A stretch of DNA of 64,000 nucleotides from an uncultured virus (IMG/VR IMGVR_UViG_3300036865_000084). Lineage: Duplodnaviria; Heunggongvirae; Uroviricota; Caudoviricetes. The notes under the pieces were generated by a model. The model was not told the origin of the DNA, ran no database searches, and worked only from the letters and a program-made list of their open reading frames with translations. The stretch is from IMG/VR virus record IMGVR_UViG_3300036865_000084. One strand, written 5' to 3'. The translations under genes were made by a program, and so were the position numbers. Numbering within the stretch: the first letter of the stretch is position 1; each line of letters opens with the position of its first letter. Shown here one piece after another: positions 3,444 to 35,826 of the stretch.

Positions 3444-3769
3444 ACTTCCCATCTCTCCGCGCGCATTTGAGCATCCCAACGCCCCGCGCTCTCCGTGTAG
3501 TGCCGCGCCGCTTTGGTGCGCCCCTCCGCGAGCGCCACCGCCGCAATCGCGCGGTCCGCTGCCGCATGCCACGAGTACGACGGCGATCTGTCGTCGCACT
3601 GCCCGTCGCGGTATGTCGCCCAGACGCGACGCTGGAGCTCGCGCGGGACCATCCGCCAGTGCGGCTTGCACATGAGCATCTCGGGCGGCACCGGCTCGTC
3701 GCAGTCGACGGCGTGGCAGCGGTGCACGTTGGCGCGTGGTTCGGGCGCGAAGAGGGGGAGCTGCTTCAT
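3440..3769 (-). CDS. Cys/His-rich phage hypothetical protein
   Basis: HRCHAVDC...LMCKPHW; ATGA overlap. Confidence 0.6.
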   Translation of the reverse strand: MKQLPLFAPEPRANVHRCHAVDCDEPVPPEMLMCKPHWRMVPRELQRRVWATYRDGQCDDRSPSYSWHAAADRAIAAVALAEGRTKAARHYTESAGRWDAQMRAERWEV

Positions 3770-4305
3770 CGACCCTCTCGGATTGCGCGCTCGAGAGAGC
3801 GGCCGTGCGTCTCGCACAACGAGATCGTCACGCCGTTGAGGACGTAGGATCGACCGGGCATCGCGCACGCGACGCAGAAGCCTCCTTCACGGACCTCGAT
3901 CGGCGGCGTCTTCTCGGCAATTTGTTGGTGGCGGACGCAGTACGGAGAGTCGCCCTCCGCGGCACGCTTGCAAGGGCGCGGCTCGGGCAGGCGCCCGTAG
4001 GGACCGTACACCACGAGGTGTTGGCACATGGGCGTTCCTGGCGGCGGCGGCTTGAAGCATTTGCTGGGCTGCACCTTCCAGCCGCCCTTTCGGATCGAGG
4101 GAGCGGTGACAGCAGGTCGTAGGGCGGGAGCGGCAAGCGCCGCGTGCACCGAAGCCGCAGCTTCTGCGCTCGGCACGATCAACTCAGCCGCCGCGGTGGG
4201 CGCACGATCGTCGAACACCGTCTCGTCGAGTGCCGAGAGCGTCTGAGCGGCGTCCGCTTTTCCGTAGCGCCACTCGTCGAGGATGTCCTTCACCCGGTCG
4301 GTCAT
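3766..4305 (-). CDS. Hypothetical protein with Cys clusters
   Basis: ATGA-coupled start MTDRVK; CxxH and CxxC pairs. Confidence 0.55.
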   Translation of the reverse strand: MTDRVKDILDEWRYGKADAAQTLSALDETVFDDRAPTAAAELIVPSAEAAASVHAALAAPALRPAVTAPSIRKGGWKVQPSKCFKPPPPGTPMCQHLVVYGPYGRLPEPRPCKRAAEGDSPYCVRHQQIAEKTPPIEVREGGFCVACAMPGRSYVLNGVTISLCETHGRSLERAIREGR

Positions 4306-25824: not shown

Positions 25825-28800
25825 GTGGGCTGGACCGAACTCCCCGCTGGCCACGACATCGTCCTGAAGGCCGGCTACAGCTACAGCGCCATCGCACGCG
25901 TGAAGAAGAGCCACACGCGCGAGACTGTACTAGGGCTTCTCGCGTCGCGCGGGTTGAAGATCCTCACCTTCGACGATCCGCTCACGGGGCCGCAGTGTCC
26001 GAACACGAGCGACAACTATCGCTGCGTCGGCGCCACCGTGATGGCGACGCGTGACGCGGGGAGCATCCCTTGGAGTTCGCCCGTCCCCATCTTCGATGAG
26101 ACCGGGCTCGTGAAAGCTTGGTATGCGGGGCCGGGGCAGCTCCCTCAAGGGGCGCCGTCCTCTTCTGGGAGCGGCGCAACGACGGCGCTCGTTGTCGGTG
26201 GTGTCGCTGCGGGGCTCGCCGGCATCTGGTGGTGGCTCAAGAAGCATCGTAAGCTGCGAGCATGAAGCGCCGGCGCCGAGCCAAGTCGAACCCCACGGAC
26301 AAGCAGCTCCTCACGACCGGCGCCGGCGTCGTCATCGGCGCGACGCTCGGGGCGCTTCTGTCGCTCCCTCTGGCGAGCGCGGTCGGCGCGGTGGTGGGCG
26401 GCTTCGTCGGGTATGGAGCAGGGCGGTGAAGCGCTGGCAGTGGCTCGCTCTCCTCGGCGGCGGCGCTCTCGCCGTCGGTGGCGCGATGCTCATCGCGGGC
26501 GGAGCGTCCGCGCAACCGTTGCCGCCGCCCCCGCCCGATCCGCCGGCGCCGCCCGATTCGGGACCGGGCCAGGGGAGCTCCGACTACGTGTCCCAGCTCA
26601 AAGCATGGCGCGACGCACTCATCCCCGCCGCGAACCGGTACCGTGGCTTCTTCTACACGTGGCGCGAGCTCCTGAGCAGCGAGTACCACTGCCCAGGGCC
26701 ATACGACACCGCGACGAAGGTGGTCGAGTATATCGCTTCGCTCGACGAGGACATGAAGCTCAACCCGCCGAACGATCAGTCGCTCTACGCGACGGCGCAG
26801 ACGATCAAGCGCTTGATGGTGTCGCTCTACCAGGCGTCGATCGCGAAGGTGTGGCGCGTCGGCTCGGGATGCGCGTGGGGGCCGTGATGACCGACGTCGT
26901 CAGCCGCGTGCTCTTGCGTCTCGAGTACACGCCGAGCTTGGTCGGGGCGCCTCGATGCCCGATCTGCGAAGGAGCGAAGCCGCAACACGAGCCGATGTGT
27001 GAGCTCGACGAGTCGCTCAGCACGCGCGGCTTTGGCACCGCGCACGATCGCGATGCTGCGCGCACCCGCCTCAAGTTCACGACGGCGTCGACGCTGCCGC
27101 CGCGGGAAGATCTCGACGAGCTCGAAGACACGAAGTGACTCAAAAAAGAGTCTTCGACGTGTCAAGCCGGAAAACGTAGTCTGACGGCATGGCTATGACG
27201 TCGGGACAGAAGCGCGCGTTGATGGTCGGAGGACTCGCGGGCGTAGGAGTTCTCTTGTTCGCCGGCATCGCGCTCGCGTCGAACAAGTCTAGCGGCAACA
27301 ACCCTCCGCCGCCGCCGCCTAAGAACGGCGGCGATCAAGGGTGTTTCACGCCGCGCACGAACTGTTCTGACTGCGATCCGGCAGAAGTCGATTACGTCGT
27401 GCAGCACTCAGACGACCCGAGCGTATCTCCCGGCAGCTACGGTCCCGTTCTCATCCCGGCGTCGGGGAGGTACATCTACTGGACCAAGGTGTCGGCACAC
27501 GTCGGTCACATCACCAAAATCTGCAAGACGGCTGGGTGATTGCGATGAAGCACAAGCCCAAAGGAGACGCTCTCGCCTGGACGATCGGTCTCGTCGGCAT
27601 CGCGGCGGCGACCCTCGGCGGCGTGATGCTGCTCTCGTCGAAGCAGGCATCGGCCTCGCCGTCTCCGCCGCCTCCAGGGCCAGGGCCGCGCCCGTCGCCG
27701 CAGCCGAACCCCGGCGGCGGCTACACCTGTCCCGACGGCACCGTCGTCGCGGACCCCACGCAGTGCACCTACCCGACGGACGGATGACATGAGCCCGCAG
27801 ACCGAACGACTCGCGTGGGTGCTCGGGCTCGTCGGCGTCGCTGCGGCTGCCGTCGGCGTCACGGTCGCCATCACCTCGAAGGCGTCGACGTCACCCAATC
27901 CGCCGGCGCCGCCGAATCCGCCCGGCCCTCCCGTGCCGCACGGCAAATGGGTCGCCGCCGACGCCATCGCGCCCGCAGGCCACTACCGGATCAGCGTCGC
28001 GAACGCGCTATCGGCGCAAGTCGCTGCCTTGCTGACGGCTGTCATGTCGACGACCGGCGCGAACTCGAGCGTGTGGCCGCCCGGCAAGGCGCCGCCGGCC
28101 GACTGGCCGAGCGACGACACGGCAAACGATCGCTGGCGCGCCGACTTCGTGAACACGACGGGGCTCGCGGTGCCGCTGCCGTCGAGTCAGGCCGGCGACA
28201 TCAAGCTGTGGGTCTGGATGCTGGGAGCGTGACGAGATGGACAAGCGAATTGGATGGGCGCTCGGTCTCGGCGCGCTCGCTGCGGGCGCGTTCGGACTCA
28301 TGGCGTGGACGGCGAAGAACGCGCAGGCGAAGACCGGCGGCTTCAATCAGCTTCCGGTGAAGCCCGGCAACCAGACGGCTGCCTTGAACAAAGGCGGCAC
28401 CATCGACATCATCGTGCCGGTGGGCTCGACGCCGATCGGCGCCGAAGCCTCGCCGAACGTCTTCTCGCCGGAGCCGTCGCCGGCGCCGCTCACGTTCCGG
28501 TTCTCGGCGTTCGCGGCGGGACAGGGCGCGATCAACGTCGCGTGGCAGGACGCTAGCGGGGCGAGGCAGGACGCCTTCGTCACCGTAAACGTCTCGTAGG
28601 TCCCAATGCCTGCCAAGTTCGACCGCTGCGTGCGCAAGGTGAAGCGCCGGATCAAGATGGGCGGGCTGCCCGCCGACTCGAGCCCCTACGCCATCTGCAA
28701 GGCCGCCATCAAGCGTTCCTCGCGCCGCATCCGCTACTACGCGCACGAGCTCAATCCCATCCCGATGGGGCACGGCGCCGAGCACGCGGTCCATTGGAAG

Positions 28801-31185
28801 CCGCTTCTTTTGATCCTCGGTGCGGCTGTCGGGGTCGGAGCGCTCATCGCGTTGACGAGCAAGCCCACGCAAGCCGCGCAGTCTCCGAAGCAGCAAGGCG
28901 GTCCCGCGCTGCCGCCGAACCTTCCGCCGCCGCCCGGAGAGTCCTATGCAGGCTGATATCTACGTCTTCTACAGCGGCCAGTACGTCTACCTGGGAAGAT
29001 TCCCCGTCGCGCAGGTCGGCGCGATCATCGGCGCCATCGGCACCGCCGGGAGTCTCCTTCCGCCGTGGGTGCCGCCGGGCAGCTACATGCTCGTGAGGCC
29101 GGCGTGAACCGGCTCGTTTGGGTTGGCGGTCTAGGCGCCGCCGCGATCCTCGCGGCCGTCGCCGCCCTATCGATGGCGAAGCCTGCGGCCGCCGCGACTC
29201 CGCCGCCCAACGCGACGACGCTCGTCCAGGGGCACCGCTACAAGATCACGTTTCCGACCCCCGCGACGACCGCGCCGAGCGTCGCCGAGGTGCAAGCGGT
29301 CTACGACAAGATCGTGCCCGGCATGATCCACATCGTCGACGTCGGCTTCGTCAAGCCCGGCACCGGCTACACCACCTTCGACTGGAAGGGCGCGACGATG
29401 CCGGTCCTGCAAGCGTTCGACAAGATCGAGCCGGGGTCTACGATCGTCGACCTGGGAGCGTCGCCATGAAGGCATCGACCGAGAGACTGCTATGGATCGG
29501 AGGGCTCGGCGCGCTCGTCGTGGGCGGCCTTGCCGCGGTGGCGTTCTCGGGCAAGTCGACGCCGCAAGGTGGCGGCCAGGGGGGCGTGAATCCGTTCCCG
29601 CCGTTTCCGTTCCCTCCCGGACCCCTCCCCGGCGGTCAGGGCGGCGGCGGCGTCCACGCGTGCGACAACAACTTCGTCGCGTCGATCGACGGCCCCTACG
29701 TCGCGGTCGTGTGCCTCGGCGGAGAGCTCACGCTTCGGGCGTCTCTTCTCTGGGTCATGACGACGGCGCCCGACCCGGGCGTCTTGCGCGTCGAGTCGCA
29801 TCCCGCGTCGGGCTACTTCCTCCGCGCGGTCGGCCGAGGCAAGACGACGATCGTGCTCGCCAACGAGCGTGACGCGGTCGCGCGAAGCTACGAGGTGATC
29901 GTCCCGTGAAGACCGATCGCCTCCTCTGGATCGGCGGCTTGGGAGCGCTCGTGGTAGGCGGGATCGCCGCCATCGCGCTCTCGGGCAAATCGTCCGGTCA
30001 GGCGCCGCTCGAGCCGAGAAAGAGACCTCTCCCTATTCCGCAGGGTCCGCCGCCTCCGCCCGTCGACATCAACAGCGTCAGCGGCACGAGCATCAACCTT
30101 GTCGTCGGGCAGCATCTCCTTACGGCGGTCAAGATCCCGGGCATCACCGTGAGCGACAATTCGAACCCGAATGTGCTCTCGAAGATCGCCGACAACGACT
30201 ACGTCGCCCAAACGCCTGGGACGAGCACGCTCACGTTCTCGAGCGCCTTCGGAGAGAAGTTTCCGTACGCGATCACGGTGAAGTGATGTCGGCGAAGACC
30301 GACAAGGCGCAGTCTGATCCGTGGAGCGTTCTCTACGACGACATCGCGAGCTTCACGAGCGGTAACGTTCCGTCGCGTGAAGACGTAGAGGCCACCGTCG
30401 TCGCTGTTGCGGTGCTCGCTGAGGCGGCTCCCGCCGTTGTTGCGGCTCTCATTCTCGTCATCGCGCTGATCGACGCGTACGCATGGCTCGCGAGCAAGCT
30501 TGGTGCAGAAGATTACTGCCAGCACCCACCGATCGACACGAACGACGTTCGATGGCTCCACTTCGGCGACGATTCGGCCGTGTCGTGGCCCGAGGGCACC
30601 ATCTCTTCGGGCCCGTGGAGTAACTTCAAGCCAGGAAGCTTCGAGGCGTGGGCCTTTCCTGTGCTCGCGCTCAATTGGGAGTATCGACTCAACTGTCGCG
30701 CGTTCATCGACTACCGAGAGCTTCTCTCGCGACTCGTCGACGCGTGGAACAAGACCCATCTCGTTCGCGGCGACGAGGCGGCTGTAAACACGGCCGTCTA
30801 TCAGCTTCCGGTAGTCCAGGCGCCGGGCGGTCCGCCCGTCATCTACCGGGCGCAGTGGCCGATGACCGTGAAGATCGTGAGCGGCGCTCCCCCCTCGCTG
30901 CCGCCGTGGCAGCACGTCTCTGGCACGTTTGGCGACTTTACGTTCATCTCGACCGATGACCATACTATCGTCGTGAACCGAGGACCCGCTTCTCCGCATC
31001 TGCACCTTCCACCCGGACCTCTTCAGGGCGCGTCCACCGGCACCAAGGTCGCCGCCGGAGCTGCGGCAGTGGGCGGCGCCGCCGTTGTGGGCACGCTCGT
31101 CTACGCGTGGGCGACCGGGAAGACGATCGACGCGGTGCTGTCGCGTTTCTGGGGGGCGGTCAAGCGTGCCGCGCACGCCAAATGA
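25825..31185 (+). other. Cluster of about 14 small genes, mostly single-TM Pro-rich membrane proteins (25825-26265, 26262-26429, 26426-26887, 26887-27138, 27189-27539, 27536-27787, 27789-28232, 28237-28599, 28606-28956, 28946-29107, 29104-29469, 29466-29909, 29906-30286, 30286-31185)
   Basis: Shared R-L-x-W-x-x-G-L-[GV] anchor in several, followed by poly-Pro linkers; tight translational coupling. Confidence 0.7.
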
Positions 31186-32630: not shown

Positions 32631-32745
32631 TTGCGTTGATATGCGTTACCGCGCGACACGGCGCTGTGCTTAGCTCTGCGACACGTTGCTGGGCGACGCG
32701 TCGCCTTACGTCTCGTGGCATTGCTGAACTACGCACGACTACGCG
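32631..32745 (-). ncRNA. 5-nt-periodic NGY-NN array 2 (23 units); candidate gapped guide RNA
   Basis: Plus strand reads tt-gcg tt-gat at-gcg tt-acc gc-gcg ac-acg gc-gct gt-gct ta-gct ct-gcg ...; 21 of 23 units fit NN-RC-N. Confidence 0.75.
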
Positions 32746-33389
32746 GCGTTGTGAATCTTGCTTCGACCGTCTCTGACGTCCCAGCCGACGACGTCGAACA
32801 CGCCGAAGACGCCGAACTTCTCCGGACGCCAGCTCCCCACGCCGATCTGTTGACCGCCCTCGGTGAAGAGCTGCCGAACGACGCTCTCGGCCATCAAGTC
32901 GGTGTTGATGCGGACGAGCAGCCGGAAGCTCCACTCGTCGAGTCGCGGGCGGTGGCTCATCACGCGACCCTTCGTGAACGGGTTCACCGCCGAGCAAGAG
33001 TGAACCTCAAACGTTGTCAGGCGCGTCTTCCGATCCTTCGCGAAGAGCGGCACGGGTCCGGCCTTCTCGTCGCCGCCGAGCACGAGTACCGCCGCCGGCA
33101 CGCGGTACTTGAGGGTCTTGCGGGTGCCGCGCTCCTTGTGGTTTGAGCCCGCGTTGACGAGCATCCGTTGGAACATCTCGCGCGGCAGGACGAGTGGTGA
33201 TCCCGGGCCGCTCTCGCGGTACGCGAAGTCTTCCGCGATCTCGCGAGGGAGCGGCTTCTCCCCAGCTGTCGTCGTGGCTCGCGTGCCCTTGCCGCTGCCG
33301 CCTGGTAGGTTTGCTTCGGCCTTCTCGGTGAACCTGTGCATGAGGAGCGGCATCACGCCGGCCCCCCAGACTTCGACGTACGAGTACAT
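32739..33389 (-). CDS. Stand-alone RAMP/Cas7-like protein (Vipr-like candidate)
   Basis: N-terminal strand VEVWG..VMPLLMH; LVLPREMFQRMLVNAG; RPRLDEWSF; Gly-rich loop IGVGSWRPEKFGVFGVFDV. GAGGTG RBS precedes the ATG at 33389. Confidence 0.7.
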   Translation of the reverse strand: MYSYVEVWGAGVMPLLMHRFTEKAEANLPGGSGKGTRATTTAGEKPLPREIAEDFAYRESGPGSPLVLPREMFQRMLVNAGSNHKERGTRKTLKYRVPAAVLVLGGDEKAGPVPLFAKDRKTRLTTFEVHSCSAVNPFTKGRVMSHRPRLDEWSFRLLVRINTDLMAESVVRQLFTEGGQQIGVGSWRPEKFGVFGVFDVVGWDVRDGRSKIHNAA

Positions 33390-33408
33390 GACGTCACCTC
33401 TTGGATAG

Positions 33409-33503
33409 AGACGTTGCTTTGCTAGGCGCTGCCGCGCCATACGGTACGTGGCTACGCTGCGCTAAGCAGTGCATCGCGCAGCATGGCGATGCACAGCCAC
33501 GCT
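33409..33503 (-). ncRNA. 5-nt-periodic NGY-NN array 1 (19 units); candidate gapped guide RNA
   Basis: Plus strand reads ag-acg tt-gct tt-gct ag-gcg ct-gcc gc-gcc at-acg gt-acg tg-gct ...; 19 of 19 units fit NN-RC-N. Confidence 0.8.
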
Positions 33504-33652
33504 TACTTCGTTTCTTCTCGCTTGATCAGCATCCGCAGCACACTCGCCACCGTGAGCCCGTAATGATCGGCGACGCGCTTGAACAAGCGGTGCTCCTCTT
33601 CACTGAGCCTGAGGGTAACGACCACGCTGCGAGCTTTCTTTTTCGCAGCCAT
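33503..33652 (-). CDS. Small ribbon-helix-helix regulator (49 aa, absent from ORF track)
   Basis: MAAKKKARSVVVTLRLSEEEHRLFKRVADHYGLTVASVLRMLIKREETK. Confidence 0.7.
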   Translation of the reverse strand: MAAKKKARSVVVTLRLSEEEHRLFKRVADHYGLTVASVLRMLIKREETK

Positions 33653-33732
33653 GGTTGATGTATAGCCGTTTCAAGCGACTAGTCAAGAGAAGCGCAATTG
33701 ATTTTGGCTCCGCGTTGTCGCACCATAAAGGC

Positions 33733-34185
33733 ATGATCATCGCGAAGGGATACGCCGTCTCGTTCGAGATGAAGGACGGCAGCGACGTCGACGCGCCTCG
33801 TTCCGCGGCGATGCTTCACGACGAGAAGGGCAAGCACTGGCCGAAGTGCTCGATGCTCATCATGCCGTTCCGTAAGGGCGGCGCCGCTGTCGAGATGACC
33901 GGCGATGAAGCCGACTACTTCGGCGGCGACTACGACGCGCGCCAGGGCAGCGTGACGCTTCCGCCGAAGCCTCTCTCTGAGTGGACGTGCCTCGGCGAGG
34001 TGCACAAGATCTTCTACGAGCGGCCGGGCAAGCACCGCGGCCTCTTCAAGCACGAGTTCGGGAAGCGGCGGCTCGTCGGTCTCTTCAAGACGGGCAAGGC
34101 GACGCTCTACAAGCGCGGCAGCGCGCTGCGCCTCGAGCTCGGAAAGAGCTGCATCGCCGACGCGCGCGGAATCGTCAGGCCGTAG
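33733..34185 (+). CDS. Hypothetical protein
   Basis: Clean ORF with typical codon use. Confidence 0.6.
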   Translation: MIIAKGYAVSFEMKDGSDVDAPRSAAMLHDEKGKHWPKCSMLIMPFRKGGAAVEMTGDEADYFGGDYDARQGSVTLPPKPLSEWTCLGEVHKIFYERPGKHRGLFKHEFGKRRLVGLFKTGKATLYKRGSALRLELGKSCIADARGIVRP

Positions 34186-34408: not shown

Positions 34409-34650
34409 CCTAGGGATGCCTCAATTCTGGTTCGAGTGCCGCCGAAACGCTAGATGCGTAAAACGCCAGAAAATAAAGGCGCTGACGCGATCACAAATCG
34501 CGCGGTACCGTTTGAAGCGCGGTGCTCGACTACCTCGACTTGCTCGCCAAGAACAGAGAGTCCGCACCAGAGCATGCGGCGGTGCCGGTGCTCTATGCGA
34601 AAACGAAGAAGAAGTCGAAGTCGAAACCGACTCGCACAACGGAGAAGAAG

Positions 34651-35826
34651 ATGGCCCGAAAGCGCAAGAAGGCGTCGCGCCCCCGTCGTCGTGATGGCAA
34701 GTTCGCCAAGGTGCGCCGCAAGCGCAAGTCGCGAGCCGGTGAAGAGGCTCCGCGCCGCCGTCGGCGTCGTCGGGCGCGTCGGGCGGCGGCTGTGACTCCG
34801 CGTCGGCGCCGTCGGCGTCGGGCGCGTCGCGCAGCGGTTGCTCCGCGGCGTCGGCGCCGCCGTCGGGCGCGCAGGGCGGCCGCGGCAGCGCCGCGTCGTC
34901 GACGTCGTCGTCGGAGCCGCGCGCGTGAGGTGCCGCATCAGGTGCGGCGCAATCGGCGCGGCCGCTTCTCGAAGAGCGCGCGTGCGCGCCGGGTCGGCAC
35001 GATCAGCCACGAGGCCCCGCGCCGTCGCGGCCGAAGCCGTCGCCGCCGGAGCCGCGAGCGCTACGCGATGGAGAACCCGCTCAGAGGGATGGAGCTCTTC
35101 ATCGGCGGCGTGACGATGCTGACGGGGGCCGGCGTCGCCGATCTCCTCGATCGGTTCCTCGCTACGCACCCGCTTCAGGTGAAGGACGCGGCAAACAACC
35201 TCTACGCCGATCAGCCGCCGACCGACGGCAACTACAAGGGCATGTTCAACGGTGCCGCGGTCGACGCGCCGATGGACATGAAGCGCTGGCTCGCGGGCGG
35301 CGCGGTCGTGCTCGTGCCGTTCGCGGCGTCGGGCTTCGTCAAGTCGGGCGCCGGCCGAAGCGCGCTCCAGCTCTTCGCCTTCGGCGCGCTCGTGCGCGTC
35401 GCCGGCAAGGCTGCGCGGGACGGCATCGCCGCCCTCCTCAAGAAGAACGCCACGGGCCAGCGGCTCTACATCGACGAGATGAGGGCGGCGGCCCTGAAGA
35501 AGGGCGACGGCAGCGAGGCCAACCTCGTCGCCGCCGGCCTCGGCGCTCCGTACCGTCAGCTCCCCGCGGGCGTCGGCGGGTGCGGCTGCGCCAACTGCCG
35601 GACCGGACAGGGCGCGTGCTGCGGCAAGATGCAGCCGGCGCCGGCTCCGGCCCCCGCCCCGGCTCCGCAACCGCCGCCGGCCCCGACGGGCCCCATCGGC
35701 ATCTCGCCGCCGCAGTTCGTTCCGGGCGGCGGTCACCCGCTGCCGTCTCCGAACCCGGGCGTCAGCGGAGCTCCGCTCCGTCAGCGCCCCCCGATGATGG
35801 GCGGGTTCACTCACCCCGACGACTGA
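34651..35826 (+). CDS. Arg-rich protamine-like protein with TM segments and Cys/Pro-rich tail
   Basis: GGAG RBS; about 135-aa Arg-rich N-terminus, hydrophobic helices, CGCANC..CC. Confidence 0.75.
   Translation: MARKRKKASRPRRRDGKFAKVRRKRKSRAGEEAPRRRRRRRARRAAAVTPRRRRRRRARRAAVAPRRRRRRRARRAAAAAPRRRRRRRSRAREVPHQVRRNRRGRFSKSARARRVGTISHEAPRRRGRSRRRRSRERYAMENPLRGMELFIGGVTMLTGAGVADLLDRFLATHPLQVKDAANNLYADQPPTDGNYKGMFNGAAVDAPMDMKRWLAGGAVVLVPFAASGFVKSGAGRSALQLFAFGALVRVAGKAARDGIAALLKKNATGQRLYIDEMRAAALKKGDGSEANLVAAGLGAPYRQLPAGVGGCGCANCRTGQGACCGKMQPAPAPAPAPAPQPPPAPTGPIGISPPQFVPGGGHPLPSPNPGVSGAPLRQRPPMMGGFTHPDD
34750..34926 (+). repeat. Four 45-48 bp coding repeats (PRRRRRRRARRAA-like)
   Basis: Units start at 34750, 34798, 34843 and 34891, with synonymous codon variation. 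Confidence 0.85.

What the first reader, a model, noticed from the sequence alone, without database searches (positions are those of the whole stretch)
33409..33503. Array 1 decoded: 19 variable dinucleotides
Seen: plus-strand NN series AG TT TT AG CT GC AT GT TG AC GC AA GT TC CA TG AT CA AC, each followed by RCN (19/19). The NN positions are 16/38 G+C, far below the window average. The array starts exactly at the RHH stop codon and ends just before the RAMP gene RBS. Inference: the NN series carries information copied from a lower-GC or promoter-like target. RAMP binding here could also autoregulate its own translation.
Basis: partly seen in the sequence, partly recalled or inferred. Interest (0 to 1): 0.85.

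Follow-up and report, generated by a model that had tools for sequence, protein, structure and literature searches.

The report
Phage VIPR guide-RNA repeat array

Summary
Positions 33409-33503 are 19 of 19 five-base units NNRCN on the + strand, which read NGYNN on the - strand. A second array of about 21 units lies at 32641-32745.

The two arrays flank a 216-aa gene on the - strand (33389-32739). Its predicted fold is a Cas7/Csm3-type RAMP. Its family profile matches the Vipr protein of Escherichia phage SUSP1 (E 2e-18) and the PDB chain named "SUSP1 Vipr protein" (E 2.3e-16).

Of 96 fetched loci that encode relatives of this protein, 94 carry the same period-5 arrays. The variable dinucleotides turn over far faster than the protein.

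This is therefore a VIPR locus, as described in three 2026 preprints. There, Vipr protomers coat a GGY/NN repeat RNA, and the NN letters pair with double-stranded DNA while skipping every third base.

The window's copy has the relaxed repeat NGY/NN. This goes with a Ser in place of the G-loop Asp that reads the first G in SUSP1. All 6 Asp-less loci show the same loss of that G.

I found no target for the window's guides, either in the window or in IMG/VR. The idea that the array regulates its own gene's translation has no support.

Verdict: a new member of a known kind, of modest interest.

The parts
33653..33733 (.). Divergent intergenic region. It is the likely promoter of the minus-strand cassette, with TTGACT at 33686..33681, a 16-nt spacer, then TATACA at 33664..33659 on the - strand, 7 nt before the RHH ATG.
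   Evidence: Read from the sequence; inference only. The tool's consensus scan lists no promoter here.
33503..33652 (-). 49-aa ribbon-helix-helix-like protein (P0001). It is the first gene of the cassette, and may be a regulator or an accessory (vap-like) DNA binder.
   Evidence: Pfam DUF6290 at 6.5e-6 (26.7 bits against a cut-off of 27), plus NikA-like, RHH_7 and RelB. NCBIfam RelB antitoxin at 2.8e-5. It is not conserved beside vipr in other loci.
33409..33503 (-). vrRNA1 repeat tract: 19 units NGYNN. Units 1-16 (33503..33424) are the likely guide. Units 17-19 (AGCAA AGCAA CGTCT, 33423..33409) resemble the conserved 3' end seen in relatives.
   Evidence: unit list; shared GCAA units at the 3' ends.
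33397..33402 (-). Shine-Dalgarno AAGAGG of vipr, 7 nt before the ATG at 33389.
   Evidence: Sequence.
32739..33389 (-). vipr: a 216-aa RAMP protein (P0002). G-loop G183-V-G-S186-W187-R188-P. Thumb hairpin at about 128-150, with the invariant R147.
   Evidence: phrog_4652 at 6e-12. AlphaFold model with pLDDT 87.5. Csm3/Cas7 matches. Homology to SUSP1 Vipr. Residue map.
32631..32745 (-). vrRNA2 repeat tract: 21 units NGYNN in register, one of them off consensus (CGAGA), followed by ATCAA CGCAA. It starts across the vipr stop codon (TAG 32741..32739).

Best explanation
The array is the repeat tract of a VIPR guide RNA (vrRNA). It sits in a compact minus-strand cassette of a phage genome: RHH gene, vrRNA1, vipr (RAMP), vrRNA2.

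By homology with the SUSP1 system, one Vipr protomer binds each 5-nt unit. The protein sequesters the conserved G-Y, and G-G-Y in most relatives, and presents the two following variable bases. The string of dinucleotides then pairs with a DNA target in which every third base is skipped. This holds the filament on double-stranded DNA and silences a gene of a competing mobile element.

Shown here:
- the array and its statistics;
- the RAMP fold;
- family membership of the protein;
- the universal linkage of the protein family with period-5 arrays;
- the rapid turnover of NN;
- the loss of the first G together with loss of the Asp that reads it.

Inferred from the preprints: expression of the RNA, filament formation, the one-base-skip pairing and silencing.

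Unknown: the target, the exact RNA ends and the role of the RHH protein.
For: 1. Array: 19 of 19 units, p about 7e-15; the maximum in 100 simulated windows was 9. A second array flanks the same gene.

2. Strand: the off-consensus units are GT on the - strand (3 of 19, and 6 of 22), not AC. The signal is therefore on the gene's strand, as for an RNA.

3. Protein fold: model pLDDT 87.5, pTM 0.82. Foldseek top hits are Csm3 and type VII Cas7, E 5e-7, prob 1.00. VIA-align gives Z 12.8 (rmsd 4.8, 163 aligned) to 8yhe_F and Z 11.7 to 6ifn_E.

4. Membership:
- Profile A2, seeded on the window protein, finds one ORF in phage SUSP1 (KT454805.2, 28474-29061, - strand) at E 2e-18.
- hhalign gives probability 98.6%, E 7.8e-16, over 170 columns.
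- The PDB chain 36pp_D 'SUSP1 Vipr protein' is hit at E 2.3e-16.
- That SUSP1 ORF has one upstream and three downstream GGTNN arrays with conserved tails, as the preprint describes.

5. Linkage: 94 of 96 loci encoding relatives (80 IMG/VR, 16 GTDB) carry NGYNN arrays of score 7 or more on the gene's strand. The rest of the window has none in about 126 kb of both strands.

6. NN turnover, measured as shared 4-unit NN words:
- median 0.91 (minimum 0.22) at 100% Vipr identity, 77 pairs;
- 0.16 at 95-99.9% identity, 55 pairs;
- 0.00 below 95% identity, 146 pairs;
- 0.00 for the window against L097, at 80% profile-column identity in that call.

7. Protein-RNA covariation:
- SUSP1 residues map to the window as H17 to H18, R138 to R147, W178 to W187 and R179 to R188, all kept, and D177 to S186, changed.
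- The 76 loci with His and Asp have a median first-G frequency of 0.94.
- All 6 loci without the Asp have 0.00-0.23; the window has 0.13.

8. Phage context: helicase, Sak4-like, exonucleases, ParB, GroES, endolysin and virion-protein PHROGs.

9. Mechanism: taken from the preprints 10.64898/2026.04.26.720920 (Results, Discussion and Methods parts 1-2 read) and 10.64898/2026.04.26.720927 (Results part 1 read).
Against: - The tract has 19 units and the second about 21, above the 9-16 repeats stated for vrRNAs. The last 2-3 units look like a conserved end.
- The first G of GGY is absent (5 of 39 units), so the repeat is not the canonical motif. The preprint does list YNNNG repeats as an alternative.
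- No structured 3' tail was detected. Fold z-scores were +0.21 and +0.92 for the two 3' regions.
- The RHH gene is not a conserved neighbour of vipr. None of 90 neighbouring ORFs from 45 loci hit an RHH family, and tblastn with P0001 gave nothing better than E 0.27.
- One locus with both His and Asp (L044) still has a first-G frequency of 0.07, so the covariation is not perfect.
- The six Asp-less loci are few and partly related.
Confidence: 0.87

Rival explanations
1. The repeat RNA (or DNA) is only a scaffold or decoy for the RAMP protein, much as TRAP binds spaced triplets. On this view the NN positions are neutral spacers that carry no target information.
For: A conserved core with 2-3 free bases per 5-nt unit looks like a pure protein-binding site.
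Against: - In the homologous SUSP1 system, changing only NN retargets silencing (preprint 10.64898/2026.04.26.720920, Results read).
- The guide content differs between phages with identical Vipr proteins, with shared words as low as 0.22.
- Guides holding both TG and CA units are rarer than in shuffles: 35 against 48.7, sd 4.9. This fits copying from one strand of coding DNA.
Confidence: 0.06
2. The array is a DNA operator: tandem half-turn sites for the RHH protein (as heptad arrays are for the omega repressor) or for another DNA binder, controlling the downstream gene.
For: The array lies between an RHH gene and the next gene's ribosome-binding site. RHH proteins are known to bind tandem short repeats (general knowledge, recalled).
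Against: - The arrays follow the RAMP gene, not the RHH gene. 94 of 96 loci have arrays, while 0 of 90 neighbouring ORFs are RHH.
- A second array lies downstream of the RAMP gene, away from any promoter.
- The variants are strand-specific (GT, not AC).
- Arrays reach 152 units in relatives.
Confidence: 0.03
3. The locus is a decaying VIPR remnant. On this view the loss of the first G reflects erosion, and the RNA no longer works.
For: The repeat departs from GGY, the tract is longer than the stated range, and array 2 has off-consensus units.
Against: - Positions G and Y are intact in 19 of 19 units.
- The vipr ORF is full length, and the residues that read the second G and the Y are kept.
- The same relaxed repeat recurs with Asp-less G-loops in 6 loci, which points to a co-adapted variant.
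Confidence: 0.03

Closest known systems
VIPR (Viral Interference Programmable Repeat) system of Escherichia phage SUSP1 (preprints 10.64898/2026.04.26.720920, 10.64898/2026.04.26.720927, 10.64898/2026.10.15.759431)
   Same: - A homologous ~200-aa RAMP protein.
- Tandem 5-nt repeats with a conserved core and two hypervariable bases, on the gene's strand.
- One array upstream and array(s) downstream of vipr.
- Phage-borne, with no cas genes and no CRISPR array.
- The residues reading the second G and the pyrimidine are kept.
   Different: - The repeat is NGYNN, not GGYNN (first G in 5 of 39 units). The G-loop Asp (D177 in SUSP1) is Ser186.
- There are 19 and about 21 units rather than 12-15.
- The SUSP1-type tail (about 40 nt, repeated after each array) is not seen. 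Only GCAA-type terminal units are shared with close relatives.
- The neighbouring small gene is RHH-like and lies upstream. SUSP1 has a 146-aa gene downstream with no Pfam hit.
- The host is unknown and has high G+C; the contig comes from a wetland metagenome.
Cas7/Csm3 backbone subunits of class 1 CRISPR-Cas effector complexes
   Same: The RRM-based RAMP fold, with a G-rich loop and thumb hairpin (Z 11.7-12.8). One protomer binds per fixed number of guide nucleotides (from the preprints and established structures).
   Different: - The period is 5 nt, not 6.
- The guide is itself a tandem repeat, and only 2 of 5 bases pair.
- There is no CRISPR repeat-spacer array, no Cas1/Cas2, no Cas10 and no large subunit nearby.
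- Sequence identity is 8-13%.
TRAP (trp RNA-binding attenuation protein) binding sites
   Same: The RNA has a short conserved core repeated with 2-3 free spacer bases, at a period of about 5 nt, and one protein subunit binds per repeat (recalled knowledge, not tested here).
   Different: The fold is unrelated and TRAP forms a ring, not a filament. In TRAP the spacers carry no information. I considered this only as an analogy before the family was identified.

Membership tests
VIPR system | A Vipr protein homologous to the described Vipr family | tested here: met
   Profile A2 against the SUSP1 genome gives one ORF at E 2e-18, covering 183 of 189 positions. hhalign gives 98.6%, E 7.8e-16. PDB 36pp_D 'SUSP1 Vipr protein' is hit at E 2.3e-16.
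VIPR system | RAMP fold with a glycine-rich loop and thumb | tested here: met
   Model pLDDT 87.5. Csm3/Cas7 matches at Z 12.8 and Foldseek E 5e-7. G-loop GVGSWRPEKFGVFG, and a beta hairpin at 128-150 with the invariant R147.
VIPR system | vipr flanked by tandem pentanucleotide repeats of GGY/NN or a related consensus | tested here: met
   19 of 19 and about 20 of 21 units NGY/NN on the gene's strand. This corresponds to the YNNNG alternative named in the preprint's Methods.
VIPR system | Canonical first G of the GGY motif, read by His and Asp | tested here: not met
   The first position is G in 5 of 39 units, and the Asp is replaced by Ser186. This is a variant within the family, not an exclusion, because the preprint lists such repeats.
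VIPR system | 9-16 repeats followed by an invariable, structured 3' tail | tested here: inconclusive
   The arrays have 19 and about 21 units. The last units (GCAA type) are shared with L097, L001 and L002. No fold rises above shuffles, with z +0.21 and +0.92. Pseudoknots cannot be predicted with these tools.
VIPR system | NN positions hypervariable among close relatives | tested here: met
   Shared NN words fall to a median of 0.16 at 95-99.9% Vipr identity and to 0 below 95%. The window against L097 gives 0.
VIPR system | A natural DNA target matching NN with a one-base skip | tested here: inconclusive
   The best window match is 22 of 38, equal to shuffles, for skips 0-3. Five 10-unit patterns had 0 exact hits in IMG/VR. 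One 8-unit seed gave 4 hits that matched 2-7 of 22 letters outside the seed, which is chance level.
VIPR system | vrRNA expressed and bound by Vipr | not testable with these tools
   This needs small-RNA sequencing of an expressed cassette and a pull-down of the tagged protein.
VIPR system | An accessory vap gene beside vipr | tested here: inconclusive
   An RHH-like gene lies upstream in the same cassette, but no RHH was seen among 90 neighbouring ORFs of 45 loci. HTH or HU-type neighbours occur in 4 loci. The list of vap families is in supplements I could not open.
VIPR system | Encoded by a virus or provirus | tested here: met
   Phage replication, lysis and virion PHROG/Pfam hits across the window.
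CRISPR-Cas (class 1) | A repeat-spacer CRISPR array and further cas genes (Cas1/2, Cas10 or Cas8, Cas5, Cas6) | tested here: not met
   No direct-repeat array of CRISPR type appears in the tandem-repeat scan. There was no PADLOC hit for the four proteins P0001, P0002 and the two flanking ORFs. No cas family was found among the 38 window ORFs scanned with Pfam.

The most novel reading that the evidence does not exclude
In the clade that has lost the G-loop Asp (the window, L097, L001, L002, L090, L021), the first repeat position is no longer read by the protein. It may have been recruited as a third guide letter, or it may alter the skip rule. That would give a second, denser decoding rule (GY/NNN) within VIPR.

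The evidence does not exclude this, because no target was found. It leans against it, however. The freed position avoids G (5 of 39 units). It is also only about half G+C, unlike the wobble bases of a high-GC target that it would face.
Probability: 0.1. Interest if true: 0.6.

Novelty: new member of a known kind. Interest (0 to 1): 0.3.

Why it matters
VIPR is a newly described way for an RNA to address double-stranded DNA, and it has been proposed as a forerunner of CRISPR.

This window adds a member from an uncultured high-GC wetland phage. Its repeat has lost the first G together with the Asp that reads it. That natural protein-RNA co-variation supports the published structural read-out, and it could guide engineering of the repeat.

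The result also shows that the first-stage reader can recover such a code from raw sequence. The family is large: 3,905 cluster representatives at E 1e-10. Similar arrays will therefore recur in this scan and can now be named at once.

Tried and rejected
- Rfam: no family at gathering score in the window or in 5 loci.
- PADLOC and NCBIfam: nothing for P0002.
- Earlier findings of this scan: three look-ups returned nothing.
- Whole genome: none is held, so host and prophage targets could not be searched.
- Self-targets: none above shuffles, for 2 or 3 variable letters and skips 0-3.
- IMG/VR pattern scans for the window's guides found no target:
  - five 10-unit patterns, 0 hits;
  - one 8-unit seed, 4 chance hits.
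- Positive control: a 10-unit pattern from a guide of locus L046 also gave 0 hits. My search therefore has unproven power.
- Guides of all loci against all loci gave only short, low-complexity matches, none at 80% or more over 9 units.
- RHH conservation: tblastn gave nothing better than E 0.27, and no RHH was found among 90 neighbours.
- Promoter and terminator scan: no promoter; the 4 terminator-like sites are all on the wrong strand.
- RNA folds of the arrays and 3' regions were not different from shuffles.
- Host inference: a Sak4-like protein search of isolated phages gave only hits at 35% identity or less, from many hosts. No tRNA was found.
- Sequencing runs: no RNA holder is listed.
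- Laying contigs of two DNA runs showed the source contig and identical low-depth fragments, with no informative variant.
- A test for a sense/antisense split of guides by G-first/C-second bias was not significant: 0.0409 against 0.0372, sd 0.0028.
- I considered a TRAP-like ring, an RHH operator, a G-quadruplex (GGNNN) and a coding repeat before the family was identified. I dropped them for the reasons given under the rival explanations.

Full report
**The observation**

Read on the + strand, 33409-33503 is 19 consecutive 5-mers of the form NNRCN. Position 4 is C in 19 of 19 units, and position 3 is G in 16 and A in 3.

The RC dinucleotide has a frequency of 0.18 in the window. Nineteen in register therefore has a probability of about 7e-15. 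In 100 Markov-1 simulated windows the longest such run was 9.

The tract shares one base with the TAA of a 49-aa ORF on the - strand (33652-33503). It ends 6 nt before AAGAGG, which is followed 7 nt later by the ATG (33389) of a 216-aa ORF on the same strand.

A second tract of about 21 units lies directly after that ORF, at 32641-32745, and runs across its stop codon. A scored scan found no other such array on either strand of the 64-kb window.

On the - strand the unit reads N-G-Y-N-N, and the exceptions to GC are GT. The signal therefore belongs to the strand of the two genes.

**The two genes**

The small ORF gives weak but consistent ribbon-helix-helix hits:
- DUF6290 at 6.5e-6;
- NikA-like, RHH_7 and RelB;
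- NCBIfam RelB antitoxin at 2.8e-5.

The 216-aa protein has no Pfam, NCBIfam or PADLOC hit. It matches phrog_4652, of unknown function, at 6e-12.

An AlphaFold model built on 48 relatives has pLDDT 87.5 and pTM 0.82. Its best structural matches are the Cas7-type backbone subunits of type III-A (Csm3) and type VII CRISPR complexes:
- Foldseek gives E 5e-7, probability 1.00.
- VIA-align gives Z 12.8, rmsd 4.8 Å over 163 residues, to 8yhe_F.
- VIA-align gives Z 11.7 to 6ifn_E.

The protein has a glycine-rich loop (GVGSWRPEKFGVFG) and a beta hairpin that carries an invariant Arg. 'RAMP' is therefore correct.

**Relatives**

A word-indexed search gave 31 relatives, all from metagenomes. A full profile search of 1.84 billion cluster representatives gave 8,127 at E 1e-3, 3,905 at 1e-10 and 424 at 1e-30.

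I fetched 80 IMG/VR loci, 16 GTDB loci and one metagenome locus that encode relatives. Of the first 96 loci, 94 carry period-5 NGYNN arrays of score 7 or more on the gene's strand, next to the gene.

In most loci the unit is GGTNN or GGCNN. Arrays often come in series of 10-17 units separated by a conserved linker, and some are very long (152 units in L052). The linkage between protein and array is therefore a property of the family, not of this window.

**What is in print**

A full-text search for pentanucleotide repeats, phage and noncoding RNA returned a 2026 bioRxiv preprint. Two more preprints from the same laboratory followed. What I read of each:
- 10.64898/2026.04.26.720920: Results, Discussion and Methods parts 1-2 of 4.
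- 10.64898/2026.04.26.720927: outline and Results part 1 of 2.
- 10.64898/2026.10.15.759431: outline and abstract only.

The preprints describe VIPR systems as follows:
- A roughly 20-kDa RAMP protein (Vipr) and vrRNAs of 9-16 YNNGG repeats, followed by a conserved tail.
- A locus usually holds vipr, one accessory gene (vap), and arrays in the flanking intergenic regions.
- Most loci are in phages and prophages.
- One protomer binds each repeat and sequesters GGY.
- The NN bases pair with a DNA target in which every third base is skipped, giving transcriptional silencing.
- Natural targets lie mostly in competing satellites and prophages.
- Alternative repeats NNNGG, YNNNG and NNNNG are mentioned in the Methods.

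**Membership, tested here**

The record KT454805.2 is Escherichia phage phiSUSP1 (the accession was recalled, and the record's title confirms it).

- The profile built on the window's family finds a single ORF there, at 28474-29061 on the - strand, E 2e-18, covering 183 of 189 positions.
- hhalign gives 98.6% probability and E 7.8e-16.
- The same profile hits the PDB chain 36pp_D, deposited as 'SUSP1 Vipr protein', at E 2.3e-16.
- That SUSP1 ORF is preceded by one GGTNN array of 13 units and followed by three of 12-15 units. Each array is followed by a conserved tail of about 40 nt, matching the preprint's description.

The window's protein is therefore a Vipr, and its two arrays are vrRNA repeat tracts.

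**The window's variant**

In the window the first G of GGY is not conserved. It is G in only 5 of 39 units, and the position is mostly A or C. In the preprint's register this is the YNNNG type.

The structural preprint states that the first G is read by H17 and D177, the second G by R138 and W178, and the pyrimidine by a pocket that includes R179. Mapping through the family alignment gives these equivalents in the window:

| SUSP1 residue | Window residue | Status |
|---|---|---|
| H17 | H18 | kept |
| R138 | R147 | kept |
| W178 | W187 | kept |
| R179 | R188 | kept |
| D177 | S186 | changed |

Across the 95 loci with at least 10 units:
- the 76 with His and Asp have a median first-G frequency of 0.94;
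- the 11 with Asn and Asp have 0.70;
- all 6 without the Asp (window, L097, L001, L002, L090, L021) have 0.00-0.23.

One His/Asp locus (L044) is an exception, at 0.07. The Asp-less loci are few and partly related, so this is suggestive rather than proven. It does explain why exactly the G and Y that are still read stay invariant here.

**Do the NN letters carry information?**

It is not. The closest fetched relative (L097, 79% identical protein) shares no 4-unit NN word with the window. Across all pairs, the shared fraction of 4-unit NN words was:

| Vipr identity | Pairs | Median shared fraction |
|---|---|---|
| 100% | 77 | 0.91 (minimum 0.22) |
| 95-99.9% | 55 | 0.16 |
| below 95% | 146 | 0.00 |

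The 3' ends of the arrays in the window, L097, L001 and L002 share GCAA-type units. Units 17-19 of array 1 are therefore probably part of a conserved end, which leaves 16 guide units.

**The target search, told fully**

No whole genome is held for this window. What I tried:
- **The window itself.** The best match to either guide was 22 of 38 or 25 of 44 letters. Shuffled guides did as well, for 2 or 3 variable letters and skips of 0-3. This agrees with the preprint's report of no self-targets.
- **IMG/VR, 10-unit patterns.** Five one-base-skip patterns from the two guides had no exact match.
- **IMG/VR, 8-unit seed.** One seed had 4 matches, which agreed at 2-7 of 22 further letters. That is chance level.
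- **Control.** A pattern from a guide of L046 also found nothing, so the power of exact-match scans is unproven.
- **Guides of all loci against all loci.** This gave only short, low-complexity matches.

The window's phage clade is itself absent from IMG/VR, where the best relative is 56% identical. Its competitors may be absent too. The target is therefore unknown, and 'lower-GC or promoter-like' is untested.

One weak hint concerns TG and CA units. Guides that hold both are rarer than in shuffles (35 against 48.7, sd 4.9), as expected if guides copy one strand of coding DNA. vrRNA1 holds two of each, which would fit a non-coding target.

**Context and the RHH gene**

The window is phage-like. 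It encodes a helicase, a PD-(D/E)XK exonuclease, a Sak4-like protein, ParB, GroES, an AAA ATPase, an endolysin and a virion-protein match.

The RHH-vrRNA1-vipr-vrRNA2 cassette is the only minus-strand unit among plus-strand genes. It faces a divergent 81-nt intergenic region, so the RHH gene is most likely co-transcribed with the rest.

RHH is not a conserved partner, however. tblastn with it against all loci found nothing better than E 0.27. None of 90 ORFs next to vipr in 45 loci hit an RHH family, whereas HTH or HU-type proteins occur in 4 loci and replication or recombination genes are common.

Its role as an autoregulator or an accessory DNA binder is inference. Nothing supports the idea that the array controls translation of vipr. 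An upstream vrRNA abutting the gene is also the SUSP1 layout.

**Verdict**

The thing itself is a VIPR locus, a system published as preprints in 2026. That makes it a new member of a known kind.

Two points are new here. The instance comes from an uncultured high-GC wetland phage. And its relaxed NGY repeat coincides with loss of the Asp that reads the first G.

Noticed in passing
L052:3649-4408; L032:2406-2890 and 3557-3871; L028 (10 arrays): Some relatives carry very long period-5 arrays: 152, 97 and 63 units, and 243 units in all in L028. This is far above the 9-16 repeats per vrRNA given in the preprint. They may be concatenated or overlapping guides.
   Followed up: no
window 33659-33686 (- strand): TTGACT, 16 nt, then TATACA ends 7 nt before the RHH ATG at 33652, and there is no Shine-Dalgarno sequence. 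The cassette mRNA may therefore be leaderless. The tool's own promoter scan lists nothing here.
   Followed up: partly
all loci, 325 unique guide chunks: The pooled NN dinucleotides are rich in GA, AA, AT, GG and GC and poor in TA, CC and CA. Guides holding both TG and CA units are fewer than in shuffles (35 against 48.7, sd 4.9). Both points fit guides copied from codon positions 1-2 of one DNA strand.
   Followed up: partly
L046:3570-4060 and L077:3570-4075: Downstream arrays alternate 7-15 GGCNN units with a conserved linker of about 26 nt (GGAACTACTGAGGCCAATATTCTC type). This gives a CRISPR-like look. The two phages have 99.5% identical Vipr proteins but share only 11% of 4-unit NN words.
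   Followed up: partly
window 34747-34914: A 48-nt tandem repeat (3.6 copies, 75% matches) lies inside the plus-strand ORF 34522-35826, which has no family hit.
   Followed up: no
L044 and L056: Two loci keep the G-loop Asp yet have a first-repeat-base G frequency of about 0.1, and the position is mostly T. L056 has Gln in place of the His. L044 is unexplained.
   Followed up: no
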